Positions 3,048-59,839 of a DNA stretch of 64,000 nucleotides are shown piece after piece. Below the pieces are notes generated by a model. It had not been told where the DNA came from and searched no databases. It saw only the letters and a program-made list of their open reading frames with translations. Source of the stretch: Candidatus Moranbacteria bacterium GW2011_GWE2_35_2-. GTDB lineage: Bacteria > Patescibacteriota > Minisyncoccia > Moranbacterales > UBA9337. A program made the translations under genes and the position numbers. Location: NCBI GenBank assembly GCA_000990585.1, contig LBQD01000001.1, positions 141,501 through 205,500 of the forward strand. The letters are read 5' to 3'. How positions within the stretch are numbered: position 1 is the stretch's first letter; each line of letters opens with the position of its first letter.

Positions 3048-4271
3048 ATGTGGCTTTTTTTAAGAAATAAAAAGAAAACGGGAAATGATTATATTTATAA
3101 TCCGTCAGGAAAGAAAAAAATGAAGACGTGGAAAAAAGTTTTATTGATAATAGGCGGTTTTTTATTTTTGGTTTTTAGTGCGATGGCGTGGAAAACCGGA
3201 AGTGTTTGGAAAAAAGTCGGAAGTGGGGGTATTTTGGAGAATTTATATAATACATTGCCAATCGGAGACAAGAAATTAGAAGGTGAAGATAGTGGTCGAG
3301 TCAATATTCTTCTTCTGGGAATGCGCGGTGAGGGCGTGGAAGGTGGAGGACTTTTGGCAGATACGATTATGATTGCCAGTTTTAAACCGAAAGTCGAAGG
3401 ACAGGAAAGCAAAGCTTCGTTATTTTCTATTCCGCGAGATTTTTATGTGAAAGTTCCCGGAAAAGAGTATCAAGCAAAAATTAACGCAGTATATGCCAGT
3501 GGTGAAGAAAGGACAACGGGTGGAGGATTGGAAGATATGAGTATAATTGTTAGTGAAATTGTTGGTGTTCCGATTCATTACGCGGCAAGTATTAATTTTG
3601 CCGGTTTTCAGCAATTAGTGGATAGCTTGGGCGGCGTTGATATTCATCTGGACCAACCTTTCAGTGAGGCTCTTCAATTTAAGGGATTGGAGCAACGTTG
3701 TGATAAGAATACAGTTTTTACTATTCCGTCGGGAAATTATGAAGAAAAGTGGATTCGCAGAAAAAATGGAACATATTATGATAATCCGAAAAAATATCCA
3801 CTTTGCTATGCTAATAATGCCAGTAAAAACGAGCTGGAATGCGGAGGAGATTTTGAATTGCCAGCTGGTGATATTACATTAAATGGAGAGCAGGCTCTTT
3901 GTTATGTTCGTTCGAGAGTTACTTCCAGTGATTTTGATCGTGCGCGTAGGCAACAGGAGGTCATTCAAGGAATTAAGAAAAAAGCTTTAAGCGTAGGTGT
4001 GTTGTCAGATTTTGGTGCAGTTAATAAAATGCTTGATAGTCTTGGAAATAATACGCGAACCAATATGCAATTTTGGGAGATGAATAGATTTTTTGAGCTG
4101 TATCAACAAGTAGGAGATGTTAAAATAAATCAGAAAGTTTTGGAAAATTCTGAAGAAGGACTTTTATATACTCCAACCGGAGATGAATGGAAGAAAGCGG
4201 GATACATTCTTTTTCCAAGAGGAGATAATTATGACCGAATAAAAGAAGCATTTGCAAAAATACTTGAATAG
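3048..4271 (+). CDS. LytR-CpsA-Psr (LCP) family cell-envelope polymer transferase. The real start is likely the Met at ~3120.
   Basis: N-terminal TM, then LLLGMRGEG...ADTIMIASF...SIPRDFYVKVPG...INAVYASGE, the LCP core motifs. Confidence 0.8.
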   Translation: MWLFLRNKKKTGNDYIYNPSGKKKMKTWKKVLLIIGGFLFLVFSAMAWKTGSVWKKVGSGGILENLYNTLPIGDKKLEGEDSGRVNILLLGMRGEGVEGGGLLADTIMIASFKPKVEGQESKASLFSIPRDFYVKVPGKEYQAKINAVYASGEERTTGGGLEDMSIIVSEIVGVPIHYAASINFAGFQQLVDSLGGVDIHLDQPFSEALQFKGLEQRCDKNTVFTIPSGNYEEKWIRRKNGTYYDNPKKYPLCYANNASKNELECGGDFELPAGDITLNGEQALCYVRSRVTSSDFDRARRQQEVIQGIKKKALSVGVLSDFGAVNKMLDSLGNNTRTNMQFWEMNRFFELYQQVGDVKINQKVLENSEEGLLYTPTGDEWKKAGYILFPRGDNYDRIKEAFAKILE

Positions 4272-5629: not shown

Positions 5630-7126
5630 TTAATACATCAATACTGCTACCGGTTGCATTTTGACTACTGATTTTATGATTTTATTTTCTTCCATTCCGG
5701 AAATCACTTCCTCAATATCTTTGTAATAGGAGCTGTCTTGTAAGACTACTCCTTTGGAAGCGGCGTTGTATAATTTGACATGACGTTTTTCCATTTTTTC
5801 AAACAATTCTTTCTTATTATGCGCGGCATCTTCTTGGCTTTCGGCGCGTTTTCCTGTTCCGTGGCTTGCTGAAAAAAAGGATGAATCATTTTCATCCGTT
5901 CCGACTCCCAAATAGGCAGGAGTACTCATTGAAGATGGAATGAAAACCGGCTCTCCGGTTTGGGAAAACAGAGGATGATTTTTCATTCTTTGCGGACCAT
6001 CGGCGCTCACAGTTCCATTGCGATGCACCCAAACATCTTCGCCAAAATGATTCTCCTTCCGGTTGAAAATATGCGGAGTATCATAGAGTAAATCTAATTC
6101 AACTTGTCTTCCGAAAACTCTTTCCAAAGCGCGATCCAAATTGTCAGTTAGAACTGCCCGGTTGGCAAATCCGAAATTAGCACTGGCTTGGTGGGCAGTG
6201 AGATACATTTTTCCTTCCAGGCTGTCCGCTTCATAGCCCAAAAATTCATCAGAGTTTTGATATTTTTTTATTTTTTCGGCGATATTTTTGTATACTTGTT
6301 TTTTCTGGCTGTCGAAAAATGTTGTTCCGATTTTGAGCATCATTTTTTGACTGAAATGTTCTTTGGTTTTTGGTGTATACATATATGACGCGTATTGTCC
6401 GAAAAGTCCCGAGCCGGTGTGCATCAGAAAAATATATTGTCCGACTTTGAGATTAAACTTTTCCGCAATTTCATTGTCCTTGATTTCCGTTATTTTCATC
6501 AGATCCAAAAAGTGATTTCCGGCCGCTCCCAAAATTCCGAGACGATATTTTCCCACGTGAAAAAAGAATTTCGGAATCGCATCAAAAATATCCCGCTGGC
6601 TGATTTCTTCCGGAACCATATTTCCATTCATTGAGGAATTTTCCAATTCATTTTTTGTGCGACTTTTCAGGTGAGAAAGCAACGGGTCGATTCCTTTATG
6701 GGCAATGTCGACTGCCAATTGGTATGGAATTTTATTGCCGACATATTTTTTTGTCGGAATAACTTCGATCAATTCTTTGAAAAGTTCGTCGATTTTTTCT
6801 TCTGTCAGATTTTGGTCATTCAAATCGGTACGCAAAAAACGCATTCCGCAATTAGGGGCGGTATCGTTGATTTGGGGAAAAAGATGCGTTTTGCTTGCCA
6901 CGATTGTTCCGGTTGGATTTTTGCGTCCCGCCTTGGGATGCACGTCGCTCATCGCGGCGATATGGGAAAAAAGACGCTTGTCTTTTCCGAGGTTTTCCAG
7001 TTGGTCGAAGGTGTGCTGGTTGGGCAAAAGAGCATCCGAAGTGTGAAAAATCACCGGAACACTCATTTCCTTGGTTTGAAATTGCTGAAGATGCAGGTTT
7101 ATTTTTTTTGTTTTAGGTATTGACAT
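5630..7126 (-). CDS. rtcB: RtcB-family RNA 3'-phosphate ligase
   Basis: RtcB motifs in order: MSDVHPKAG (DxH metal site), PNCGMRF, GAAGNHFLDL, HTGSGLFG. The C-terminal PSSMSTPAYLGVGT...SASHGTGK matches the RtcB PGSMGT..Y..GT...S..HGAGR block. Confidence 0.8.
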   Translation of the reverse strand: MSIPKTKKINLHLQQFQTKEMSVPVIFHTSDALLPNQHTFDQLENLGKDKRLFSHIAAMSDVHPKAGRKNPTGTIVASKTHLFPQINDTAPNCGMRFLRTDLNDQNLTEEKIDELFKELIEVIPTKKYVGNKIPYQLAVDIAHKGIDPLLSHLKSRTKNELENSSMNGNMVPEEISQRDIFDAIPKFFFHVGKYRLGILGAAGNHFLDLMKITEIKDNEIAEKFNLKVGQYIFLMHTGSGLFGQYASYMYTPKTKEHFSQKMMLKIGTTFFDSQKKQVYKNIAEKIKKYQNSDEFLGYEADSLEGKMYLTAHQASANFGFANRAVLTDNLDRALERVFGRQVELDLLYDTPHIFNRKENHFGEDVWVHRNGTVSADGPQRMKNHPLFSQTGEPVFIPSSMSTPAYLGVGTDENDSSFFSASHGTGKRAESQEDAAHNKKELFEKMEKRHVKLYNAASKGVVLQDSSYYKDIEEVISGMEENKIIKSVVKMQPVAVLMY

Positions 7127-8222: not shown

Positions 8223-9376
8223 ATTTTCTCGTAAATCTCCGCGTATTGTTTTGAAACATTTTTAATGTCAAAGTTTTGCTCGACATACTTTCTGGCGCTG
8301 ATGCCGAGTTTTTTTCTTTTTTCCGGATTATCGTGCAAATCTAAAATCGCAGCGGTGAGTTGCTCGACATTTCCGGCTTCGATTCGCACCGAATTTTCTT
8401 TGTTGGAAAATTCCTCAAGAATCGGAATGTTGGAAATTATCACCGGCTTGGCGCACGCCATCGCTTCCACCACCACCAACGGCACATCGAATTTACCGCG
8501 CATATTTTGTACCGGAAAAATCGAAATATCCGCCATATTATAAATATCCGCCATATTGAATTTCCCGTCGTCATGAAAAACAACTTTTTCCAAAAGGTTG
8601 TTTTTCATTAATTTTTCAACAACCTTATTTTTATTATCAGCATCTTTTTTGTTTTTCACCCGCACCGCCATCGACAATTTTGCCGTCGGAATTTTTCCGG
8701 ATACTTTGATAAAAGCTTCCACAACGTCATCCATCGCTCCCAGGCGCGTGTATTCTCCGGCAAAATTGATCACAAAATCATTCAAAGCGTAATTTTCGTT
8801 TTTCACTCTTGTTTCTTTTGGGGAATAATTTTCCAAATCTATTCCCGGATAAATCCTCTCGACGTTTTTAATTCCCAATGAGAGTAATTTTTCCTTGGCG
8901 AAATCGGAATAAGTAATAATCAAATCTCCAAACATCAAATTTTTCAATTCTTCATCTGAAAATAAATCTTGTCGCAACGTGGCAACGGTCTGAATTGATT
9001 GGATATCTGTCATCCCGGAATTTTTTCCGAAAAATATCCGGGATCCAGAAATATTAAGTACAACTCTCATCATCCCCGTATTGAATTTAGTCGGAGTAAA
9101 AAGCAAGTGTAAGATATCAAATTTATACGCATTTAAAATTAAAAACCAAAATAACCGCAATTTCTGAAAAAATCCGAAATCATTTTGCGAATGAGTATAT
9201 ATCTTTTCCTGAATAACGGAACTTGGCAATTCATCAACTTGTCCGTTAGTCATCAAGTGGAGCTCCAAATTTTTGTTATCACTCAAATCTTTCGCCAAGG
9301 TAAAGGCGAAATTTTTCGACGCTTCATCCCACGGCGGAGCGATGGGGCGGGTAATAAGAAGTATTTTTTTAGTCAT
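8219..9376 (-). CDS. Glycosyltransferase family 1
   Basis: C-terminal PLVVVEAMACAKPVIISNIPILEEF, the GT1 EX7E-type region. Contains an 18-bp in-frame tandem duplication (NMADIY repeated). Confidence 0.7.
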   Translation of the reverse strand: MTKKILLITRPIAPPWDEASKNFAFTLAKDLSDNKNLELHLMTNGQVDELPSSVIQEKIYTHSQNDFGFFQKLRLFWFLILNAYKFDILHLLFTPTKFNTGMMRVVLNISGSRIFFGKNSGMTDIQSIQTVATLRQDLFSDEELKNLMFGDLIITYSDFAKEKLLSLGIKNVERIYPGIDLENYSPKETRVKNENYALNDFVINFAGEYTRLGAMDDVVEAFIKVSGKIPTAKLSMAVRVKNKKDADNKNKVVEKLMKNNLLEKVVFHDDGKFNMADIYNMADISIFPVQNMRGKFDVPLVVVEAMACAKPVIISNIPILEEFSNKENSVRIEAGNVEQLTAAILDLHDNPEKRKKLGISARKYVEQNFDIKNVSKQYAEIYEKI

Positions 9377-9393
9377 AACAAATAGTAAGTATA

Positions 9394-11406
9394 TTAAATA
9401 ATAGAAATTGGATCCCGGTCAATAATCCATCCCGGACCAAGCGATTGAATTGCTTTTTTTATTTTCAAATCCACATCTTTTGTTTTGTATTTTATGATAA
9501 TCTGCTTGCGATGTTTTCCGCGAATATTAGAAAGCATACAATTTTGCGGAGGATATATTCTTGTTCCATCCAAATCTTCACTGACCCATTCCAGTATTTG
9601 AAAAACCCGGTCAGTTTCTTTTTTCGCTTTTTTTTCATTTTGATCTTGAAAAATTAATTTTATCAATTTTCCAAACGGAGGATAATCCAATTCTTTTCTT
9701 TCACCAAGTTCTTTTTCATAGAATTTTCTGAAATCATTTTCTATTGCCGATTTTATAACAAAATTTTCCGGCTGGAAAGTTTGTACGACCACTTCTCCGG
9801 GAAACCGGCTTCCGGGACGCCCGGTTCTTCCCGCAGCTTGTACGATGTGCGCAAACGCATTTTCATTTGTGAATAAATCCGGAAAACTGAGGAGCCCATC
9901 CGCGTCAATAATACCAACAAATCCGACATTTTTCAAATCCCAACCCTTGGTGATCATTTGCGTTCCAATCAAAATATCGATTTTTCCATCAGAAAAATCA
10001 CGCCAAATTTTTTCACGCACTTCTTGGCTCTTCATTGTTTGATTATCCGCAATTTCTATCCTGGCCGAATAGAAATTTTTTCGTAATTCGCGCAATATTT
10101 TTTCCGTCCCGATTCCCACATTTTCAAAAATCATTTCTTTGCAGTTCGGACAAGTCGGAAAATCAGAAGTTTTGTATGAACAATGCAAGCATTTGTAATT
10201 TCCTTTTTTTTGATATATCAGTGCTCGCCGGCACTTGGGGCATTTGAGAACTTCCTTGCATTTTTTGCACACGGAAAACGCACTCATTCCTTGGCGATTG
10301 ACAAATAAAATTGTTTGCAATTTATTTTTCAGCGCGTACTCGATTTCTCCTCTCAATTTCCGAGAGAGGGGAGACTTGTTTCTTACCCAGCGCTCTTTTT
10401 TCATATCGACAACTTCAATATGCGTTGCGTTGTTTCCAATATTCAAATGGGAAAATTTGATCAATTTATACTTCTCGCTTTCGGTGAGATAATAATTTTC
10501 GACACGGGGAGTGGCGGAGCTGAGCAATAAATGCGCACGGAAAAAATCTGTCAGTTTTTCGGCAATCTTTTGCGATTCATATCTTGGAGACGCATCCCAT
10601 TGCTTGAAAGATACATCATGATCCTCATCGATAACTATGAGTTTTAATTTTTTAAAAGGAGCAAAAAGTGCTTGGCGCGTGCCAATGATTACACGAATTT
10701 TTCCTGATTTGATTGCCTGCCAATTGGAATAAAATTGACCTTTTGGAATTTTACTGTGCAGAATGGCAATTTCATTTTCATCAAAATGCGCAAAAATTCT
10801 TTCCGCGATGGGGGATATCTGAGTGAGCTCCGGGACAATAATAAGAAATTGAGTGTCGGGGTCTAGCTGGCTCAGTTTTGCAATCACCTGAATGCACGCC
10901 TCGGTTTTCCCGGAAGATGACGGACCGAAAAGCAATGCCTGACATTTCACAACTTTCAATTTACAATTTTTGTGGTAGATTTTATTAATGAAAGAATTTT
11001 GTGCTTTGGTAAAAACTATGTTTTTTATTTCCGGCTTCGGTATTGAAAATTTTTTTCGCGTTGCGCGCGCTTTGACGCGATCAGGAACAAACATTTTCAA
11101 AACGATTCCCAGTGAAGTGAAATAATATTCAGAAATAAATTTTGCCAGTGCAATTTGTTTCTCGGTTAAAAAACTTTCTTCCAAAATTTTTTCAATTTTT
11201 TTCATTCGATAATTTCCGCTTCGAGTAAAATCATTCTTGCTGTCCAAAACGATTCCATTGATTTTTCTTTTCCCTAAAGATACTTCCACCAGCGATCCGC
11301 TCGGAATTGTTGTATTGGAAAGATAATAAAAAAATTGCTCCCGGGAAAGGGGAATTTTTGTGAGAGGCACAACGCTTACCAAATACTTTTCTTTAATTTC
11401 AGCCAT
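9394..11406 (-). CDS. priA: Primosomal protein N' (PriA helicase)
   Basis: Walker A GPSSSGKTE, DExH-like DEDHD, the Cys4 zinc-binding insert CPKCRRALIY...CLHCSY...CPNCKE, and the helicase C motif QAAGRTGRPG. Confidence 0.9.
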   Translation of the reverse strand: MAEIKEKYLVSVVPLTKIPLSREQFFYYLSNTTIPSGSLVEVSLGKRKINGIVLDSKNDFTRSGNYRMKKIEKILEESFLTEKQIALAKFISEYYFTSLGIVLKMFVPDRVKARATRKKFSIPKPEIKNIVFTKAQNSFINKIYHKNCKLKVVKCQALLFGPSSSGKTEACIQVIAKLSQLDPDTQFLIIVPELTQISPIAERIFAHFDENEIAILHSKIPKGQFYSNWQAIKSGKIRVIIGTRQALFAPFKKLKLIVIDEDHDVSFKQWDASPRYESQKIAEKLTDFFRAHLLLSSATPRVENYYLTESEKYKLIKFSHLNIGNNATHIEVVDMKKERWVRNKSPLSRKLRGEIEYALKNKLQTILFVNRQGMSAFSVCKKCKEVLKCPKCRRALIYQKKGNYKCLHCSYKTSDFPTCPNCKEMIFENVGIGTEKILRELRKNFYSARIEIADNQTMKSQEVREKIWRDFSDGKIDILIGTQMITKGWDLKNVGFVGIIDADGLLSFPDLFTNENAFAHIVQAAGRTGRPGSRFPGEVVVQTFQPENFVIKSAIENDFRKFYEKELGERKELDYPPFGKLIKLIFQDQNEKKAKKETDRVFQILEWVSEDLDGTRIYPPQNCMLSNIRGKHRKQIIIKYKTKDVDLKIKKAIQSLGPGWIIDRDPISII

Positions 11407-11593: not shown

Positions 11594-11671
11594 ACAGGAA
11601 TAACTCAGCCGGGTTAGAGTGCAACCTTAGCAAGGTTGAAGTCGCGGGTTCAAATCCCGCTTCCTGTTCCA
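11594..11671 (+). tRNA. tRNA (class I, 78 nt, encoded CCA) with apparent anticodon AGC and an A1:U72 acceptor start. Identity is uncertain.
   Basis: Acceptor ACAGGAA/TTCCTGT, T8 A9, D-arm ACTC-AGCCGGGTTA-GAGT, anticodon arm CAACC-TTAGCAA-GGTTG, T-arm GCGGG-TTCAAAT-CCCGC, discriminator T, then CCA. It sits 4 nt after the preceding tRNA. Confidence 0.5.
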
Positions 11672-16440: not shown

Positions 16441-17076
16441 ATGAAAAATAATAAAATTTGGACACTTGAAAAAGTAAAAGAAGGTTTTGAAAAGTTTTAT
16501 AGTACCTATAATAGATATCCTACTGCATATGATATTGATGATTTTAATTTCCTGCCATCGTCAAGACAAATCCAAAGAAGCTTTGGCGGTTTAGTTAAGC
16601 TAAGAAAAATACTAGAATTAAAAATTGAAAATTATGGAAACGGGAAATCCAGATCTCGGCTAGCACATAATTCAAATATACTGGGTAAAAAATGCGAACG
16701 CATAGTATTGGAGTTATTAAAAAATAAATTCGATGAGAAATTTGTACATATAGAAAAACCAGTAGAAGGGGATTATAAAAATCGCTTTGACTTTTATGTA
16801 TATGCTAAACCTAAAAATTTTGCAATTGATGTTTTTGGAAGTGATGATACTAGGAATCTTGTGAATAATTTCAATATAAAAGAGAAAAAATATTTAAAAT
16901 CAAATAACGAAAAGGAATCTTTGTATTTTATTTATATTGGAGACAAAATAAATGAAAGTAAATTGGCTATTTGGTATCAAAAAAAGAAATCTAAAATACC
17001 AAAAAATTGGAAGATTATAAGTCTTAAAGAATTAAAAAAGGAAATGAATAGGTATGAGGCTTATCGCGCTATATAG
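16441..17076 (+). CDS. Hypothetical protein in an AT-rich island. The C-terminal half has weak PD-(D/E)xK-nuclease-like features. The call is tentative.
   Basis: RFDFYVYAKPKNFAIDVFG and an upstream ExK-like stretch (HIEKPVEGDYK) loosely fit a restriction-endonuclease-like fold. The N-terminal domain (TAYDIDDFNFLPSSRQIQRSFGG) is unrecognised. Codon usage is more AT-rich than the neighbouring genes. Confidence 0.35.
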   Translation: MKNNKIWTLEKVKEGFEKFYSTYNRYPTAYDIDDFNFLPSSRQIQRSFGGLVKLRKILELKIENYGNGKSRSRLAHNSNILGKKCERIVLELLKNKFDEKFVHIEKPVEGDYKNRFDFYVYAKPKNFAIDVFGSDDTRNLVNNFNIKEKKYLKSNNEKESLYFIYIGDKINESKLAIWYQKKKSKIPKNWKIISLKELKKEMNRYEAYRAI

Positions 17077-19474: not shown

Positions 19475-19861
19475 CTATTTTATTAAATCTTCTAGCGTGA
19501 TATTTTTCAATGTTTTTCTAATCTGAATTCCGAGGGCAACCCAGACTTTTTTTGACCGGCAATTTTTGGAAGTACAATGTGAACTTTCGCATTTCATAAA
19601 CTCCAAAGGACCTTCCAGTGTTTCGATAATTTCTCCGACATTAATTTTTTTCGGTTCGCGCGCCAAAACATATCCTCCCATTTTCCCCTTTTGACTCACA
19701 ACCAGATTTTTTTTGCGCATATATCCCATCAAACGTTCCAAATATTTGAAAGAGATTTTCTCTTCTCCGGAAACATCACTAAGACTCTTAATTTCCGGAT
19801 AGGCATCCGCCAAATTAATAATCGCCCGCAGGCCATATTCAGCTTTAGTCGAAAAACGCAT
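19475..19861 (-). CDS. iscR: Rrf2-family transcriptional regulator (IscR-like)
   Basis: N-terminal wHTH MRFSTKAEYGLRAIINLA typical of Rrf2. Heads the iscS-iscU operon. Confidence 0.75.
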   Translation of the reverse strand: MRFSTKAEYGLRAIINLADAYPEIKSLSDVSGEEKISFKYLERLMGYMRKKNLVVSQKGKMGGYVLAREPKKINVGEIIETLEGPLEFMKCESSHCTSKNCRSKKVWVALGIQIRKTLKNITLEDLIK

Positions 19862-20130
19862 AATATATAAATTTATCTAAATCCATCCCCTACTAATCTA
19901 GTATGCTTTAATAATAATACTTTCAAAAAAAGATGTCAATGGCTTCGCAATAGCCCAGCTTGGAATAAATAAAAAATCACACAAACTATTATATAGTAAC
20001 ATTATTTGCCAACAATTCATTATCTAAAATTTAATCAATATATTGCAATTGCCATAATGTGATTAAGAATTAAAGTCAAGATCAATAATTAAATAACTTT
20101 AATAATTAACACCCAGACTATCAATAAATT

Positions 20131-20194
20131 TACTTTTTCCCACGGTCGTGGAAAAAAGTAAATTTTTAACATAATTATACGGTCGTATAATTAT
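20131..20194. promoter_or_regulatory. Two adjacent near-perfect palindromes sharing an ACGGTCGT core. Candidate operators in the iscR / nuclease divergent intergenic region.
   Basis: P1 is TACTTTTTCCCACGG TCGTGGAAAAAGTA at 20131-20159. P2 is CATAATTATACG GT CGTATAATTATG at 20169-20194, with perfect 12-bp arms. Centres are 36 bp apart. Confidence 0.45.
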
Positions 20195-20301
20195 GTTATT
20201 TTTTATTTTCCAAAAAAATATTTATTGGATTTTTCTTTATTGTCGACATTGCTTAGTGGGCGTGATATAATTTTAAATAATCAGTGATAAACAACAAAAT
20301 T

Positions 20302-21432
20302 ATGCGAATATCATATAGCGCGTTGGAAACATATCGTAATTGTCCGCTTAAATACAAATATCAAAATATTGATAAAATCAAAGAACCTAAGAGTAAAGAG
20401 GCGGTTTTTGGGACAATTATTCACAGCGCTCTAAAATTTGCTCATACTCCGGGCATTCTTTCCCCTACCCTTGAACAAACACTGGATTATTTTTCCCGTA
20501 ATTGGAACAGTGATGTTTTTGAAGTGGAAGCTGAAGAACGCGCGGCTTTTTCCCAAGGCGTGGAAATGATTCGAAAATACTATGAAAAAAACAACATTGC
20601 GGCAACTAATATCGTTGATTTAGAGAGTCGATTTGCGATTGATTTAGAAGGTAATGTTATTTCCGGAATAATTGACCGCATTGACAAAACAGATGATGGC
20701 TATGAAATTATTGACTATAAAACTGCCAAAAAAATGCCTTCGCAAGAATATGTTGATAATAATCTTCAGCTGTCGGTTTATTTGAAAGCATTTTTAGTTC
20801 GTTATCCGGAGGAAGCGAAAAATTTAGAAAAAATAAAGGTGAGTTTATATTTTCTTAAACACGGAGTAAAACTCACCGCTAGCCGAAATTTGCAACAACT
20901 TCAAAAAATCGATGAGGAATTTTTGGAAGTTATTAAAAATATCGAGGAGAGAAAATTTGATCCGAATATCACTCCACTTTGTGATTGGTGTGGATATCAG
21001 AAACTTTGCCCGATGTGGCGACACAAATTTAAAAATGAAAGAAAAATTGATACGGAAGATGTGAATCAAATGATCGGAGAATATATCGTCGCTAAAGAAG
21101 AATCTAAGAGTTTGAGATATAAAATAGCCGCGCTTCAAGAAAAAGTTTCACAATATATGGATCAGGAAGGAGTTGAAAGGGTTTTTTCAGAAAATGGAAT
21201 AATCGTCAGAACACTGCGATCAACCTACAAATATGATGAAAAGAAAATAAGAGAAATTCTAGCGCCATTGGGACAATGGGAAAATGTAGTTAAAATTGAC
21301 GCCATCGCTTTGAAAAAGATTATTCCCGCCTTACCTGTTTCTATTCGTAATGAAATAGACTTGGCGCGGGAAATAAGCAAACAATCAAGCAGTTTTAGTA
21401 TTAAAAAGCAAAATGAGACAGAGGAAGAGTAA
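20302..21432 (+). CDS. Cas4/RecB-like PD-(D/E)xK nuclease with a 4-Cys Fe-S cluster motif and a ~170-aa C-terminal extension of unknown function
   Basis: An N-terminal Cys (YRNCPLKY). Nuclease motifs IIDRIDK...YEIIDYKT (D...ExK). A C-terminal C-x2-C-x5-C in PLCDWCGYQKLCP. This is the Cas4/AddB-type arrangement. Confidence 0.7.
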   Translation: MRISYSALETYRNCPLKYKYQNIDKIKEPKSKEAVFGTIIHSALKFAHTPGILSPTLEQTLDYFSRNWNSDVFEVEAEERAAFSQGVEMIRKYYEKNNIAATNIVDLESRFAIDLEGNVISGIIDRIDKTDDGYEIIDYKTAKKMPSQEYVDNNLQLSVYLKAFLVRYPEEAKNLEKIKVSLYFLKHGVKLTASRNLQQLQKIDEEFLEVIKNIEERKFDPNITPLCDWCGYQKLCPMWRHKFKNERKIDTEDVNQMIGEYIVAKEESKSLRYKIAALQEKVSQYMDQEGVERVFSENGIIVRTLRSTYKYDEKKIREILAPLGQWENVVKIDAIALKKIIPALPVSIRNEIDLAREISKQSSSFSIKKQNETEEE

Positions 21433-45488: not shown

Positions 45489-45656
45489 ATGAGTAGAACA
45501 TGTGAAATTTGCGGACGCGGAACCCAATCTGGAAATTCTCGAAGCCATTCCAATATCGCTTCCAAAAGAAAATTCAAGGTTAATGTTCAATCAAAGAAAA
45601 TTGAAGGAAAAAAAATGAAAGTTTGCGCCAAATGCATAAAAACTATTTCCAAGTAA
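45489..45656 (+). CDS. rpmB: 50S ribosomal protein L28. The track ORF is over-extended at the N-terminus, and the likely start is MSRTCEIC.
   Basis: CEICGRGTQSGNSRSHSNIASKRKFKVNVQ matches L28. Confidence 0.8.
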   Translation: MSRTCEICGRGTQSGNSRSHSNIASKRKFKVNVQSKKIEGKKMKVCAKCIKTISK

Positions 45657-45659
45657 TAA

Positions 45660-45692
45660 AAAAACTCCCGGCATGCCGGGAGTTTTTTTATT
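45660..45692. terminator. Bidirectional rho-independent terminator between rpmB and the convergent polyprenyl synthase gene
   Basis: AAAAAACTCCCGGCATGCCGGGAGTTTTTTT: an 8-bp GC stem flanked by an A-run and a T-run. Confidence 0.75.
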
Positions 45693-45707
45693 AGAATTAT
45701 TTTTTCA

Positions 45708-51014: not shown

Positions 51015-51085
51015 CACGGGTGGAGAGAATCGAACTCCCGTTATTGGTTTTGGAGACCAACGTACTACCACTGTACGACACCCGC
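51015..51085 (-). tRNA. tRNA-Trp (anticodon CCA)
   Basis: Minus-strand cloverleaf: acceptor GCGGGTG, D-arm GTAC-AGTGGTA-GTAC, anticodon arm TTGGT-CTCCAAA-ACCAA, T-arm GGGAG-TTCGATT-CTCTC. Confidence 0.8.
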
Positions 51086-51117
51086 CTTTGTCCGCCATAG
51101 CGGACTTTTTTGTTTGA

Positions 51118-51279
51118 TTATTTCGCTTCCTTATGCAGAGTATGCTTTTTGCAGAATTTGCAATATTTTTTCATTTCCAATTTCTCCTTCAACTTCTTCT
51201 TATTGCGATTGGAATAATGAGTTATTTTTTTGCACTCATTGCATTTGAATTTAACCAAATTTTCCTTTGTCTTTGCCAT
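51118..51279 (-). CDS. rpmG: 50S ribosomal protein L33 (53 aa). Absent from the ORF track.
   Basis: Hand translation: MAKTKENLVKFKCNECKKITHYSNRNKKKLKEKLEMKKYCKFCKKHTLHKEAK. It has the C..C...C..C zinc-ribbon and the LE(L/M)KKYC..C.KHT.HKE L33 signature. Confidence 0.8.
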   Translation of the reverse strand: MAKTKENLVKFKCNECKKITHYSNRNKKKLKEKLEMKKYCKFCKKHTLHKEAK

Positions 51280-51323
51280 AATCTTTATTACGTATTAAAC
51301 ATATTAACAATACAATTCACCTG

Positions 51324-51396
51324 AGCCGTTGCGCGGAATCGGACCGCGGACCTCATCCTTACCATGGATGTGCTCTACCGACTGAGCTACAACGGC
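51324..51396 (-). tRNA. tRNA-Thr (anticodon GGT)
   Basis: Acceptor GCCGTTG/CAACGGC, anticodon arm CATCC-ATGGTAA-GGATG, T-arm CGCGG-TCCGATT-CCGCG. Confidence 0.8.
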
Positions 51397-51414
51397 TTGT
51401 TTTAAAAGAAATTG

Positions 51415-51497
51415 TGGGCCGGGAGGGAATCGAACCCCCGAAGTCCGAAGACGTCAGATTTACAGTCTGATGCATTTGACCGCTCTGCCACCGACCC
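51415..51497 (-). tRNA. tRNA-Tyr (anticodon GTA), type II with a long variable arm
   Basis: Acceptor GGGTCGG/CCGGCCC, anticodon arm TCAGA-CTGTAAA-TCTGA, an 11-nt D-loop and an extended variable arm. Confidence 0.8.
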
Positions 51498-51523
51498 ATC
51501 ACATCTATTCAATTTAAGCTCTG

Positions 51524-51596
51524 AGCCACCTGCCGGGCTTGAACCGACGACCCGCTGTTTACAAAACAGCCGCTCTACCAACTGAGCTAAGGTGGC
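51524..51596 (-). tRNA. tRNA-Thr (anticodon TGT)
   Basis: Acceptor GCCACCT/AGGTGGC, anticodon arm GCTGT-TTTGTAA-ACAGC, T-arm GTCGG-TTCAAGC-CCGGC. Confidence 0.8.
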
Positions 51597-55185: not shown

Positions 55186-55208
55186 AGAAACAATTTTTTA
55201 AAATACTA

Positions 55209-55240
55209 AAAACCGCTCACATAACGCGAGCGGTTTTTAT
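55209..55240. terminator. Bidirectional rho-independent terminator between rpmE and the convergent HtrA-like gene
   Basis: AAAACCGCTCACATAACGCGAGCGGTTTTTAT. Confidence 0.65.
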
Positions 55241-57226: not shown

Positions 57227-59839
57227 TTACCGCAAAACTATCTTTCCCTTTGAAAGTACCGCATTCACCATATCTCCTTCTCTTATTCTACCCTCAATTA
57301 TCCGAAGCGCCAACTCATCCAAAATTTCCAACTGAATAACTCTTTTTAATGGCCTGGCTCCATATGACGGATCATATCCTTTTTCAGTAAGATATTTTTC
57401 TACTTTATTTTCTATTTTCAAATGAATTCCTTTTTTGCTTAGTCGCTGGCGCACTATTTCAAGTTGCAATTGCACTATTTTTTCCAATGTTTTTTTTCCG
57501 AGCGGATGAAATATTATTATATCATCCAAACGATTCAAAAATTCAGGTTTGAAATTTCTTCGCAAACTCTCCATTATTTTTTCCCGTATTTCTTTTTCGT
57601 TTATAGAACTCCCGTCTCGCTTGTGACGAAAACCAACCTCATGCATTTTATAAATCAAATCAGATCCAATATTTGATGTCATTATTATCACCGCGTTCTT
57701 GAAATTAACAACTCTTCCTTTTGCATCCGTGAGCCTCCCATCATCAAGAAGCTGTAAAAGAATATTGAACACTTGTGGATGCGCTTTTTCTATTTCATCA
57801 AACAAAATCACACTGAACGGTCTGCGCCTAACTATTTCCGTAAGTTGCCCGCCTTCTTCATATCCGACATATCCCGGCGGCGAACCGATAATTTTTGCGG
57901 TTGAATGCGGTTCCATATATTCACTCATATCCAAACGTACCATTGCTCTTTCATCATTAAAAAGCAATTCCGTAAGTGCTTTTGCTAACTCCGTTTTTCC
58001 AACTCCAGTAGGACCAAGAAAAATAAATGAACCGATCGGTCTGTTTTCTTCGGAAATCCCCGCTCGCGATCTTCGAATTGCATTTGCTACCGATTTTATC
58101 GCCTCTTCTTGTCCAATAACTCTTTTTCCGATTTCACCTTCCGCATTCGCCAATTTTTTTATCTCTCCTTGTAACATTTTTGAAACAGGAATATTGGTCC
58201 AGCGCGAAACTACTTTCGCGATATCTTCTTCCACAACTTCTTCTTTTAGTATTCCTTCGTTTTTTTGAATTTTATTCAATTTTACACTTTCCCGTTTTAT
58301 TTTTTTCTCCAATTCCGGAATTTTTCCATATCGAATTTCAGCCACCTTCTCAAGTTTTCCTTGACGCTCCAAAACATCTGCCTCCGATTTTAGCTGATCA
58401 ATTTCCTTTTTCCCTTTTCTTATTGTCATAATCAAATCCTTTTCCGATTTCCATTGGAGACTTATTTTTTGAAATTTCTCTTTAAGATTGGCTATTTCTT
58501 TAGATATTTCATTTATTTTTTTCTTAGTCTTACTATTTTTTTCTCTTTCCAGCGCTTTTTTCTCAATTTCCATACGACGAATATTTCTTTCCATCTGATC
58601 AATTTCCGCCGGCATTGAATCAATTTCTATCTTCAGTGAAGATGCCGCTTCATCAATCAAATCAACTGCTTTGTCTGGCAAAAATCTGTCACTAATATAG
58701 CGCGAGGAAAGGTTAACTGCTGCCAAAATAGCTTCGTCGGTAATTTTTACGCCATGATGAATTTCATATTTCTCTTTGATGCCACGCAAAATTGCTACCG
58801 CATCCTGAATTGAAGGCTCAGAAACCAAAACCGGCTGAAATCTTCTTTCGAGCGCCGCATCTTTTTCAATATATTTTTGATATTCTCTGATTGTAGTCGC
58901 GCCGATTGTTTTCATTTTCCCTCGCGCCAAAGCGGGCTTTAACATATTAGAAGCATCCAACGCTCCCTCACTTGCTCCCGCTCCAACCAAAGTATGAAGT
59001 TCATCTATAAAAACAATATGTTTTCCCGCTGATCTTTCAATTTCTTTTAAAATTGCTTTGAGCCTGTCTTCAAATTCTCCTCTAAACTTGGCACCTGCCA
59101 AAAGAGCACCTAAATCCAAACTCACAATTTCCTTATCGCGGAGATTTTCCGGAACATCTCCAGAAACAATTCTCTGCGCGAGACCTTCAATAATTGCTGT
59201 TTTTCCTGTTCCCGCTTCTCCGATTAAAACAGGATTATTTTTTGTTCTTCGGCTTAAAACTTGCACGACGCGACGAATTTCTGCGTCTCTTCCAATTACC
59301 GGATCCAGCTTTTCATTTCTTGCCAATTGTGTCAAATTAATTGTATATTTTTCCAATGACTGGAATTTACCTTCCGGTTCCGGACTATCCACCCTCTGAT
59401 TTCCGCGAATTTCCGAAAGAATTTTTAATACTTTATCATAATTTATTCCTCTTTTTTCTAGGATTTTTCTTGCTATATTTTGCACAGACAACACTGCTAA
59501 AAAAAGATGCTCGGTGGAAATAAAATCATCTTTCATCATTTCCATTTCCTTTCCAGCCTGTTCTATGATTCTAGTCAGATCTTGACTCACATAAATTTGT
59601 CCGACTGCACCTGCCGAACTCTTTGGCATTTTTTCTATTTCACTCGCAAGCTCTCCGACAATATCATCAATATTAATTTCCATTTTGCGCAAAACAACCG
59701 AAACGATAGAATCACTTTGAACAATCAGTGTAGAAAGTAAGTGAAAAACATCAACTTGCATTTGATTATAGGATAAGGCTTTTTCCTGCGCCGCGCGCAA
59801 CGCTTCTTGACTTTTATTTGTGAGCTTATTTATATCCAT
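57227..59839 (-). CDS. clpB: ATP-dependent chaperone ClpB
   Basis: Clp N domain. Two AAA+ modules ([10 protein letters not shown] and [14 protein letters not shown]). A long middle coiled-coil. Signature [12 protein letters not shown]. Confidence 0.95.

What the first reader, a model, noticed from the sequence alone, without database searches (positions are those of the whole stretch)
20131..21432. Standalone Cas4/RecB-like Fe-S nuclease with a novel C-terminal domain, preceded by paired palindromic operators
The 382-aa protein has the full Cas4/AddB-type signature: an N-terminal Cys, the D...ExK nuclease motifs, and a C-terminal C-x2-C-x5-C. It is followed by a ~170-aa extension with no recognisable motif. 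There are no cas genes or CRISPR array in the window. About 90 bp upstream lie two adjacent near-perfect palindromes sharing the core ACGGTCGT. P1 has ~13-bp arms and P2 has perfect 12-bp arms; their centres are 36 bp apart. That is the footprint expected for a dimeric repressor bound at tandem operators. The gene sits next to the iscRSU Fe-S assembly operon, divergent from iscR, which is suggestive for an Fe-S-dependent nuclease. This could be a regulated defence or repair nuclease of unknown type.
Basis: partly seen in the sequence, partly recalled or inferred. Interest (0 to 1): 0.6.

Follow-up and report, generated by a model that had tools for sequence, protein, structure and literature searches.

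The report
Ordinary repair nuclease beside leftover palindromes
The gene is a widely conserved but uncharacterised Cas4/RecB-type iron-sulfur nuclease of Moranbacteria, and the two palindromes in front of it are not its operators: they are the tail end of a neighbouring regulator-gene cassette, left there by a 2.5-kb deletion.

Summary
The sequence features are real. The gene (ATG 20302 to 21432, 376 aa) has every Cas4/AddB/AdnAB nuclease hallmark, and two long palindromes (P1 20126-20165, P2 20167-20198) share the core ACGGTCGT.

The palindromes are absent upstream of the gene in 46 orthologous loci and in a 95%-identical relative.

A sister contig (L098, nuclease 91% identical) carries the intact arrangement: nuclease, then divergently RhuM, GNAT, and a 183-aa wHTH + Cas2-like (Pfam PaaX_M) gene followed by the same two palindromes. 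The window equals L098 with about 2.5 kb deleted. About 12 codons of the PaaX_M gene survive on the minus strand (20203-20241). P2 and P1 now lie about 45 bp upstream of the nuclease -35 box.

These palindromes belong to a recurrent Patescibacteria family that brackets PaaX_M genes. In 5 of 5 loci chosen by protein alone, one site overlaps the promoter and one follows the stop codon.

The nuclease is a core chromosomal gene (more than 2,600 full-length homologues, Pfam PDDEXK_1 plus DUF2800). Its C-terminal domain is family-wide and shared with actinophage RecB-like exonucleases. It has no solved structural homologue. I found no evidence of a link to defence or to Isc.

The parts
20302..21432 (+). 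Nuclease gene (376 aa; an alternative GTG start at 20284 gives 382 aa). Stand-alone Cas4/AddB/AdnAB-type Fe-S PD-(D/E)XK nuclease of the COG2887 / PDDEXK_1 + DUF2800-like family.
20302..21030 (+). Nuclease domain (residues 1-243). Catalytic motifs: GIID125RID, D138-Y-K140, Q156xxxY160. Fe-S ligands: C14, C227, C230, C236.
   Evidence: PF12705 at 127 bits. Invariant columns. Foldseek PDB hits to ACE1, AdnAB, AddAB, Cas4, Dna2 and Exo5.
21037..21429 (+). C-terminal domain (residues 246-376): a 39-residue helix followed by a small alpha/beta unit. It is conserved family-wide and its function is unknown.
20243..20271 (+). Predicted nuclease promoter: TCGACA, 17 nt, TATAAT, with an upstream TG (11 of 12 matches). 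It is shared with L003 and L098.
20203..20241 (-). Remnant of the 3' end of a PaaX_M (wHTH + Cas2-like) gene: ..NKEKSNKYFFGK plus stop TAA (20205-20203), 4 nt from P2. The deletion junction lies at about 20239|20240.
   Evidence: tblastn and translation. DNA alignment to L098 2779-2812. An HMM test of the remnant alone is weak: rank 7 of 3,720 fragments, E 13.
20167..20198 (.). P2: perfect palindrome TAACATAATTATACG-GT-CGTATAATTATGTTA. Member of the ACATAAT-N3-ACGGyCGT-N3-ATTATGT family and homologue of L098 P2' (2816-2843).
20126..20165 (.). P1: 19-nt-arm palindrome with one mismatch. Homologue of L098/L086 P1', which is a perfect palindrome. Homology to L098 stops exactly at its outer end.
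20010..20088 (.). Fragment 96-97% identical to L003 2405-2484. In L003 that stretch is the spacer between the GNAT and alpha/beta-hydrolase cargo genes. It is a second scar of the former accessory island.
19911..19939 (-). Predicted iscR promoter (TTGACA, 17 nt, TATTAT). The iscR gene lies at 19475-19861 (-).

Best explanation
There are two unrelated things side by side.

(A) The gene encodes a chromosomal, vertically inherited, stand-alone Fe-S PD-(D/E)XK nuclease of the Cas4/AddB/AdnAB structural class. It carries a family-wide C-terminal helix plus alpha/beta domain. By analogy with its structural relatives, it most likely threads a single-stranded DNA end past the Fe-S arch and degrades or trims it during recombinational repair. 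The long helix probably serves dimerisation or partner binding. The fold, motifs and conservation are shown; the activity and role are inferred.

(B) The two palindromes are not regulatory elements of that gene. They are the 3'-flanking palindromes of a wHTH + Cas2-like (Pfam PaaX_M) gene that lay on the opposite strand, inside an accessory island (RhuM, GNAT, PaaX_M) inserted between iscR and the nuclease gene. A deletion of about 2.5 kb with GAcAA/GAtAA microhomology removed RhuM, GNAT and all but about 12 codons of PaaX_M. It fused the palindromes to the upstream edge of the nuclease promoter.

In intact cassettes the same palindrome type sits both over the PaaX_M promoter (dyad about 20 bp upstream of the -10-like box, roughly -32 from the start codon) and directly after its stop codon. 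The palindromes are therefore most likely binding sites of the PaaX_M protein, used for autoregulation (inferred). In the window they are orphaned.
For: (A) Nuclease.
- PF12705 at 127 bits, DUF2800 at 36.6 bits.
- Catalytic and Cys columns are invariant.
- AF2 model at pLDDT 82.5. Foldseek against PDB gives ACE1 1e-10, AdnAB 2e-10, then AddAB, Cas4, Dna2 and Exo5.
- 2,636 homologues; the top 120 are full-length at 63-100% identity.
- Synteny with AA-kinase/SecF/SecD is kept across Moranbacteria, and the flanks in distant Parcubacteria are housekeeping genes (L27, M23 peptidase, UvrB).

(B) Palindromes.
- No palindrome and no ACGGTCGT within 500 bp upstream of the gene in 46 loci.
- The iscR-nuclease spacer is 120 bp in the 95%-identical L047 and 127 bp in the 86%-identical L001, against 440 bp here.
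- L098 carries the nuclease N-terminus (91% identity), its promoter (window 20240-20513 matches L098 274-1 at 85%), RhuM, GNAT199, PaaX_M at 2258-2809, then P2' and P1'.
- A three-way alignment shows the window equals L098 with about 275-2778 deleted.
- Window 20123-20205 matches L086/L098 at 87% over 83 bp, including the PaaX_M stop codon.
- A metagenome scan found 35 P2-type sites in 33 loci. Thirteen of those loci carry a PaaX_M gene, usually 7-80 bp away.
- Unbiased test: 5 of 5 loci chosen by protein alone have a core-bearing site 9-20 bp before the ATG, followed by a TATAAT-like box, and another site 3-34 bp after the stop.
- Unconstrained positions stay complementary: covariation 0.314 against 0.116 in shuffles (0 of 500 reached it), and 85% paired against 32-44% when slid.
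Against: - No biochemical data exist for the nuclease family. Polarity, substrate and partners are analogy only.
- The 12-codon remnant is not significant on its own (E 13, rank 7 of 3,720). The case rests on DNA homology and geometry.
- I could not check whether the rest of this genome (a 788-kb contig) encodes an intact PaaX_M protein that could still bind P1 and P2.
- No binding of a PaaX_M protein to these palindromes has been shown. The complementarity kept at variable positions would also fit a hairpin or cruciform role.
- P2 is followed by TTTTTTATTTT on the + strand, so a residual terminator or insulator effect is not excluded.
Confidence: 0.8

Rival explanations
1. P1 and P2 are tandem operators at which a dimeric repressor (IscR/Rrf2, LexA-like or other) controls the nuclease gene, making it a regulated defence or repair nuclease.
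For: Two adjacent long palindromes share a core and lie in the divergent iscR/nuclease spacer. Related palindromes do overlap promoters elsewhere.
Against: They are absent upstream of all 46 orthologues and of the 95%- and 86%-identical relatives. They lie 44 bp upstream of the -35 box rather than over the promoter. Their position is the by-product of a 2.5-kb deletion. In the intact sister locus they are about 2.6 kb from the gene, beyond three other genes. They bear no resemblance to the short palindrome next to the iscR start that is seen in the compact spacers.
Confidence: 0.05
2. Orphan but still active sites. A PaaX_M paralogue encoded elsewhere in this genome still binds P1 and P2, and this incidentally modulates the nuclease and/or iscR promoters in this lineage only.
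For: P2 is still a perfect palindrome and P1 has only one arm mismatch. P2-type sites without an adjacent PaaX_M gene are common in short intergenic regions (20 of 33 loci). The PaaX_M family is widespread in Moranbacteria (778 hits).
Against: There is no PaaX_M homologue in the 64-kb window. The sites are 96 and 133 bp upstream of the predicted nuclease TSS and about 190 bp or more from the iscR -35 box. The deletion may be too recent for decay to show: the spacer is identical in contigs carrying the 97-100% identical protein.
Confidence: 0.15
3. The palindromes act as nucleic-acid hairpins, as transcription terminators or insulators, or as RNA-stability elements of the former PaaX_M transcript. 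On this view they are not protein-binding duplex sites.
For: Both strands fold far better than shuffles (z -5.9 and -6.0). The P1 mismatch becomes G-U on the minus (PaaX_M-sense) strand. Variable positions stay complementary across 35 sites, including positions about half a helical turn from the conserved blocks. In every intact cassette a site lies just after the stop codon. P2 is followed by a T-run on the + strand.
Against: The same palindrome type also lies upstream of the -10 box of PaaX_M genes, where it would not be transcribed. The stems are AT-rich and mostly lack a following U-run, and the terminator scan did not call them. Sequence blocks (ACATAAT, ACGGCCGT) are conserved across genomes of different G+C content, which terminators do not need. 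G-U pairs are not enriched.
Confidence: 0.15
4. The palindromes are the ends (recombination sites) of a small mobile cassette carrying the wHTH + Cas2-like gene. P1 and P2 would then be a solo end left by imprecise loss.
For: The cassette is bracketed by related palindromes in L057, L058, L059, L060, L086 and L098, and in 5 of 5 protein-selected loci. In L090 the two flanking sites are exact 30-bp inverted repeats of each other. Proteins 66-75% identical sit in five unrelated neighbourhoods. L003 is an empty site for the cassette. Homology between the window and L098 ends exactly at the outer edge of P1.
Against: There is no target-site duplication or terminal inverted repeat at the outer junctions of the one filled/empty comparison. 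No recognisable transposase or recombinase is present. There were no hits in viral contigs. I have no evidence for multiple copies per genome.
Confidence: 0.15

Closest known systems
Nuclease domains of mycobacterial AdnAB and Bacillus AddAB (AddB-type Fe-S RecB-family nucleases)
   Same: Same fold (Foldseek E 2e-10 to 2e-6; TM-score normalised to the query 0.46-0.50 for the best AdnAB and AddB chains). Same catalytic D...DxK and QxxxY motifs. Same four-Cys Fe-S arrangement, one N-terminal Cys plus CX2CX5C.
   Different: This is a 376-aa stand-alone protein with no helicase or ATPase domains and no adjacent helicase gene. It has an extra C-terminal helix plus alpha/beta domain.
CRISPR-associated Cas4 and the Argonaute-associated Cas4-family enzyme ACE1
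   Same: ACE1 (9iac, 9iab) gives the best structural match (E 1e-10), and Cas4 profiles hit residues 87-237.
   Different: The TIGR00372 score is 40 bits against a cutoff of 65. No CRISPR array was found and no argonaute gene lies among the genes flanking the nuclease; I did not scan the window for cas or argonaute proteins. The gene is a core chromosomal gene with conserved housekeeping synteny.
DUF2800 / COG2887 'RecB-like, probable prophage proteins' and actinophage RecB-like (Cas4-family) exonucleases of about 390 aa
   Same: The Pfam DUF2800 profile aligns through both domains (residues 9-326). PHROG 69 and 1218 'exonuclease' match. The C-terminal domain fold recurs in the Tsukamurella phage TIN4 and Arthrobacter phage KellEzio exonucleases (PMC3424549).
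   Different: This is not in a phage or a duf2800-gp2.5-polA module (PMC8093625). It is vertically inherited in Moranbacteria and Parcubacteria.
PaaX-type regulators (wHTH + central Cas2-like domain), for the deleted neighbour gene whose palindromes remain
   Same: PF20803 PaaX_M at 75-78 bits. The N-terminal part looks like a winged helix (a weak match to STIV F93). Palindromic sites overlap its own promoter.
   Different: It is only about 185 aa and lacks the PaaX C-terminal domain. There is no paa operon. The palindromes are 28-44 bp long, carry an ACGGCCGT core and bracket the gene on both sides. I found no literature on this arrangement.

Membership tests
Cas4/AddB-type Fe-S PD-(D/E)XK nuclease (Pfam PDDEXK_1, PF12705) | Profile match above the curated threshold across the whole domain | tested here: met
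   127 bits against a cutoff of 22, residues 8-243 on profile positions 1-247 of 247.
Cas4/AddB-type Fe-S PD-(D/E)XK nuclease (Pfam PDDEXK_1, PF12705) | Catalytic D ... (D/E)xK plus QxxxY motifs conserved | tested here: met
   D125, D138-Y-K140, Q156 and Y160 are invariant in 56 homologues.
Cas4/AddB-type Fe-S PD-(D/E)XK nuclease (Pfam PDDEXK_1, PF12705) | Four cysteines: one N-terminal plus C-x2-C-x5-C | tested here: met
   C14 (at least 90% conserved); C227, C230 and C236 invariant. Actual cluster binding is not testable here.
Cas4/AddB-type Fe-S PD-(D/E)XK nuclease (Pfam PDDEXK_1, PF12705) | RecB-family nuclease fold | tested here: met
   AF2 model at pLDDT 82.5. Foldseek against PDB gives ACE1, AdnAB, AddAB, Cas4, Dna2 and Exo5, with E from 1e-10 to 1e-4.
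CRISPR-associated Cas4 (TIGR00372) | Equivalog score above cutoff | tested here: not met
   40.4 bits against a cutoff of 65.
CRISPR-associated Cas4 (TIGR00372) | Neighbourhood with cas1/cas2 or a CRISPR array | tested here: not met
   No CRISPR repeat family at Rfam gathering threshold and no array by TRF. The flanks are iscRSU and AA-kinase/SecDF. I did not scan the whole window for cas proteins.
AddAB / AdnAB / RecBCD helicase-nuclease | Nuclease fused to, or encoded next to, an SF1 helicase motor | tested here: not met
   The protein is 376 aa with no ATPase domain. No helicase is adjacent in the window or in the 46 loci, apart from an unrelated UvrB in L024.
DUF2800 phage RecB-like exonuclease (PF10926) | Profile match above threshold | tested here: met
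   36.6 bits against a cutoff of 21, residues 9-326 on profile positions 4-313 of 368.
DUF2800 phage RecB-like exonuclease (PF10926) | Phage or prophage context (duf2800-gp2.5-polA module) | tested here: not met
   Housekeeping synteny is conserved across Moranbacteria. The module is described in PMC8093625.
Operator pair of a repressor controlling the nuclease gene | Sites recur upstream of orthologous genes | tested here: not met
   0 of 46 loci, and none in L047 (95%) or L001 (86%).
Operator pair of a repressor controlling the nuclease gene | Sites overlap or abut the core promoter | tested here: not met
   P2 ends 44 bp upstream of the -35 box (20243). The dyads lie about 96 and 133 bp upstream of the predicted TSS.
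Palindrome family bracketing PaaX_M (wHTH + Cas2-like) genes | Consensus ACATAAT-N3-ACGGyCGT-N3-ATTATGT, or a shared (C)CACGGyCGTG(G) core with complementary arms | tested here: met
   P2 matches the pattern and P1 shares the core.
Palindrome family bracketing PaaX_M (wHTH + Cas2-like) genes | Site lies 0-34 bp after the stop codon of a PaaX_M gene | tested here: met
   The remnant ..NKEKSNKYFFGK plus stop lies 4 nt from P2 on the minus strand. This is homologous to L098, where the intact gene precedes P2' and P1'.
Palindrome family bracketing PaaX_M (wHTH + Cas2-like) genes | Bound by the PaaX_M protein | not testable with these tools
   Inferred only from position: the dyad lies about 20 bp upstream of the -10-like box of the gene's own promoter in 6 loci.
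Intrinsic (rho-independent) terminator | G+C-rich stem immediately followed by a U-run | tested here: inconclusive
   The terminator scan did not call them. P2 has an AT-rich stem followed by TTTTTTATTTT on the + strand. P1 has the T-run before the stem and the A-run after it.

The most novel reading that the evidence does not exclude
The by-product, not the original claim. Patescibacteria may carry a previously undescribed self-contained cassette: a roughly 185-aa wHTH + Cas2-like (PaaX_M) gene bracketed by long palindromes with a conserved ACGGCCGT core. One palindrome sits over its promoter and one or more sit just after its stop codon. The cassette changes genomic position between close relatives and leaves solo palindromes such as P1 and P2. 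It could be an autoregulated element whose palindromes double as recombination or structure-specific sites for the Cas2-like domain. That would make it a new kind of small mobile or selfish module.
Probability: 0.3. Interest if true: 0.6.

Novelty: new member of a known kind. Interest (0 to 1): 0.3.

Why it matters
For the finding as stated, it matters little. It removes a false lead (a 'regulated defence nuclease with operators') and files the gene in a known, uncharacterised family.

Two things are still useful. First, this Cas4/AdnAB-like nuclease is a conserved core gene in reduced Patescibacteria genomes. I saw no helicase gene next to it, so it is a candidate minimal DNA-end-processing enzyme worth assaying. 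Second, chasing the palindromes exposed a recurrent palindrome/PaaX_M cassette and an indel hotspot between iscR and the nuclease gene. If the cassette proves mobile, or its Cas2-like domain proves active on the palindromes, that would be a new small element type.

Tried and rejected
- Rfam, at gathering threshold on the window and at E up to 10 on 19850-20320: only tRNAs and noise.
- Small ORFs in the spacer: nothing credible.
- Terminator scan: the palindromes were not called.
- PDB sequence search with the single protein gave nothing; with a profile it gave only weak AdnAB hits.
- PADLOC gave only sub-threshold Cas4 and DruK-like nuclease-domain hits, with no defence-system context.
- The viral contig scans, for the palindrome and for PaaX_M, were both empty.
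- The HMM test of the 12-codon remnant against all six-frame fragments of the window was not significant alone, so I rely on DNA homology instead.
- I looked for target-site duplications and terminal repeats at the filled/empty junctions of the cassette and found none.
- Literature searches for PaaX with Cas2-like, Patescibacteria or winged helix returned no papers.
- I considered parS, dif, serine-recombinase crossover sites and Fur, NrdR, LexA or IscR boxes from memory. None matches the consensus, and I tested none beyond inspection.
Full report
**What is at the coordinates.**

ORF 20284-21432 (+) exists. An identical 376-aa protein (P0001) is on record for Candidatus Moranbacteria bacterium GW2011_GWE2_35_2-. 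The orthologues begin MRISYSAL, so ATG 20302 is the likely start.

Pfam gives PDDEXK_1 over residues 8-243 (127 bits, cutoff 22) and DUF2800 over 9-326 (36.6 bits, cutoff 21). There is a sub-threshold DUF7376 hit over 251-375. The neighbours are iscR (Rrf2), iscS and iscU on the minus strand upstream. An amino-acid-kinase-family gene, secF, secD and secA lie on the minus strand downstream.

The two palindromes are real. P1 has arms 20126-20144 and 20147-20165 (19 nt, one mismatch). P2 has arms 20167-20181 and 20184-20198 (15 nt, perfect). Both have a 2-nt centre and share ACGGTCGT. That 8-mer occurs nowhere else in 64 kb; 0.39 occurrences were expected. Both strands of the region fold far better than shuffles, with z about -6.

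A strong sigma-70-like promoter lies between P2 and the gene: TCGACA, 17 nt, TATAAT with an upstream TG, at 20243-20271. P2 therefore ends 44 bp upstream of the -35 box.

**The nuclease.**

In an alignment of 56 homologues these columns are invariant: D125, D138-Y-K140, Q156/Y160, C227, C230 and C236. C14 is at least 90% conserved.

The AlphaFold model has pLDDT 82.5. Its best PDB matches are the Argonaute-associated Cas4-family enzyme ACE1 (E 1e-10) and the AdnAB nuclease domains (E 2e-10), followed by AddAB, Cas4, Dna2 and Exo5. A profile search of PDB sequences finds only AdnAB, weakly.

The protein scores below the Cas4 equivalog cutoff (40 bits against 65). Rfam and TRF find no CRISPR array.

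The family is large. There are 2,636 hits, and the top 120 cover 94-100% of the query (most 98%) at 63-100% identity. Sources annotate them 'RecB family exonuclease' or 'PD-(D/E)XK nuclease family protein'.

The literature files DUF2800/PDDEXK_1/COG2887 as 'RecB-like, probable prophage proteins' (PMC3424549). It describes a duf2800-gp2.5-polA module in phages (PMC8093625). Here the context is chromosomal housekeeping instead.

**The C-terminal domain.**

The domain spans residues 246-376. It models as a 39-residue helix followed by a small alpha/beta unit, with pLDDT 82.6.

- Foldseek against viral models finds the same two-domain architecture in actinophage exonucleases: Tsukamurella phage TIN4 (398 aa, E 5e-6) and Arthrobacter phage KellEzio 'RecB-like exonuclease' (392 aa). 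It also finds stand-alone phage proteins of 120-150 aa.
- An exhaustive HMMER search with the domain alone finds 119 representative clusters. These are mostly the C-ends of 350-405 aa proteins, or short proteins and fragments.

The extension is therefore uncharacterised but family-wide. It is not a novelty of this gene.

I fetched 46 loci from species-representative genomes.

The order iscU-iscS-iscR | nuclease | AA-kinase-secF-secD is conserved in Moranbacteria. It is lost in more distant Parcubacteria. There the neighbours are ribosomal protein L27, an M23 peptidase, UvrB and similar genes.

The iscR-nuclease spacer varies from 95 to 3,459 bp. Where I examined the extra DNA (L003, L029, L098), it carries unrelated cargo genes.

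None of the 46 loci has ACGGTCGT within a long palindrome, or any comparable palindrome pair, within 500 bp upstream of the gene. A 95%-identical relative (L047) has a 120-bp spacer. The 86%-identical L001 has 127 bp. Neither has the palindromes.

Only contigs carrying the 97-100% identical protein share them.

**Where the palindromes come from.**

A palindrome in L029 has the same outer arms and core as P2, with a compensatory inner triplet. That prompted a metagenome scan for ACATAAT-N3-ACG-N2-CGT-N3-ATTATGT. The scan found 35 sites in 33 loci, and none in viral contigs.

The consensus is tgtaACATAATTCCACGGCCGTGGAATTATGTtaca. At the positions the pattern left free, the two arms stay complementary. 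The covariation score is 0.314 against 0.116 in shuffles (0 of 500 reached it). Paired cells are 85%, against 32-44% when the partner columns are slid.

Thirteen of the 33 loci carry a protein of about 185 aa, mostly within 100 bp of a palindrome. Pfam finds only the PaaX central Cas2-like domain in it (PF20803, E about 1e-21). The N-terminal part looks like a winged helix, on a weak match to STIV F93. The family has 778 hits in Moranbacteria and Parcubacteria.

As an unbiased test I picked five family members by protein alone and fetched their contigs. All five have a core-bearing site 9-20 bp before the ATG, directly followed by a TATAAT-like box. All five also have another site 3-34 bp after the stop codon. 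Their flanking genes differ in all five.

**The decisive comparison.**

Window 20123-20205 (P1 and P2) is 87% identical over 83 bp to L086 1509-1427. There the pair follows the stop codon of a PaaX_M gene.

The longer contig carrying that gene is L098 (3,654 bp). It contains, in order:

- the nuclease N-terminus (91% identical to the window protein, residues 1-70);
- the nuclease promoter (window 20240-20513 matches L098 274-1 at 85%);
- divergently, RhuM (339 aa) and a GNAT (199 aa, 98.5% identical to the GNAT in the L003 insert);
- an upstream palindrome, then PaaX_M (2258-2809);
- P2', P1' and a third core-sharing palindrome;
- a second GNAT.

A three-way alignment shows how the reverse-complemented window relates to L098. 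It follows the L098 promoter side up to ...ATGTCGACAA. It then continues at L098 about 2779, which is the last roughly 12 codons of PaaX_M, the stop codon, P2' and P1'.

The window minus strand reads ..NKEKSNKYFFGK-stop, 4 nt from P2. Intact genes end ..NEEKLKKHFF-stop.

So a deletion of about 2.5 kb, with GAcAA/GAtAA microhomology, removed RhuM, the GNAT and nearly all of PaaX_M. It placed the palindromes next to the nuclease promoter.

Window 20010-20088 is a second scar. It is 96-97% identical to the GNAT/hydrolase spacer of the L003 insert.

The remnant peptide alone is not statistically significant. The conclusion rests on the DNA homology and the geometry.

**What the palindromes do in intact cassettes (inferred).**

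The dyad lies about 20 bp upstream of the gene's own -10-like box in six loci. That box ends 7-9 nt before the ATG, so the mRNA looks leaderless. This position is typical of an autoregulatory binding site.

The conserved blocks, ACATAAT and ACGGCCGT, are spaced about 10.5 bp apart, which puts them on one face of the helix.

Three observations keep hairpin and mobile-end readings alive. Complementarity is kept at variable positions. The gene is bracketed on both sides, and in L090 the two sites are exact inverted repeats. Homology between the window and L098 stops exactly at the outer edge of P1.

L003 is an empty site for the cassette. I saw no target duplication or terminal repeats at the outer junctions.

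**Verdict.**

The nuclease assignment is right. It concerns an ordinary, conserved, uncharacterised family member, not a defence gene.

The operator and Isc-link interpretations are not supported. The palindromes are orphaned flanks of a deleted PaaX_M cassette.

The only potentially new biology is that cassette family. It lies outside the original claim and needs experiments.

Noticed in passing
L057-L098 (e.g. L098 2216-2937, L086 836-1560, L059 537-1915, L060 4015-4715, L058 1229-1887, L090 2467-3087, L096 2457-3089): Recurrent cassette in Patescibacteria: a roughly 185-aa wHTH + Cas2-like (PaaX_M) gene bracketed by long palindromes with an ACGGyCGT core. One palindrome overlaps its promoter and one to three follow its stop codon. 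The neighbouring genes differ between close homologues. I found no literature on it.
   Followed up: partly
L081 8322-9933: Three tandem copies of an intergenic unit holding two perfect palindromes with the same core: TGAAAACCACGGCCGTGGTTTTCA and AAACAGGACATGAGATGACGGCCGTCATCTCATGTCCTGTTT. The copies separate short ORFs of 94-140 aa, and a P2-type site lies at 9134.
   Followed up: no
Window 19862-20301; L003 541-4001; L007, L011, L013-L015, L019, L020, L030, L045, L046: The iscR-nuclease spacer is an indel hotspot in Moranbacteria, ranging from 95 to 3,459 bp. In L003 and L098 it holds accessory genes: RhuM, GNATs and an alpha/beta hydrolase. In L003 the RhuM gene is split into two ORFs.
   Followed up: partly
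L022 1695-1728, L045 1061-1096, L032 3767-3796, L034 about 3705-3728, L036 about 1254-1277, L038 about 3652-3675: A different conserved palindrome, (T)GTCGCAAAA-N4-6-TTGTGCGAC(A), recurs in several Parcubacteria loci. In some it lies downstream of iscU and in others 230-350 bp upstream of the nuclease gene. Its nature is unknown.
   Followed up: no
L029 2402-2439: A perfect 38-bp P2-type palindrome, with no PaaX_M gene within the 9-kb locus, lies 1.56 kb upstream of the nuclease orthologue, beyond a 313-aa ORF that I did not scan against Pfam. So the variable region upstream of this gene carries such palindromes in a second lineage.
   Followed up: partly
Window 20126-20165: The single mismatch in P1 is C/A on the + strand but G-U on the minus strand, which is the sense strand of the lost PaaX_M gene. 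Both P1 and P2 carry the centre GGTC where L098 has GGCC.
   Followed up: partly
Window 45654-45693, 55207-55239, 8573-8608: Other long palindromes with an A-run, a stem and a T-run look like bidirectional intrinsic terminators. Long palindromes are enriched overall: 14 in the window against 0-4 in shuffles.
   Followed up: no
Window 16441-17076 (+): A 211-aa ORF upstream of iscU has no Pfam hit. It is conserved (56% identity) at the same relative position in L030.
   Followed up: no
Window 51015-51596 (-), 11594-11668 (+); 5630-7126, 9394-11406, 57227-59839: There is a cluster of four tRNA genes plus a single one. RtcB, PriA and ClpB genes were identified by Pfam. In L090 a PaaX_M cassette lies near priA, but the window has none there.
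   Followed up: no
L043 5129-5192 and 6123-6171; L046 1310-1360: Very long perfect palindromes (arms of 24-31 nt) lie near the nuclease orthologue and the isc genes in other Parcubacteria. They are unrelated in sequence to P1 and P2.
   Followed up: no
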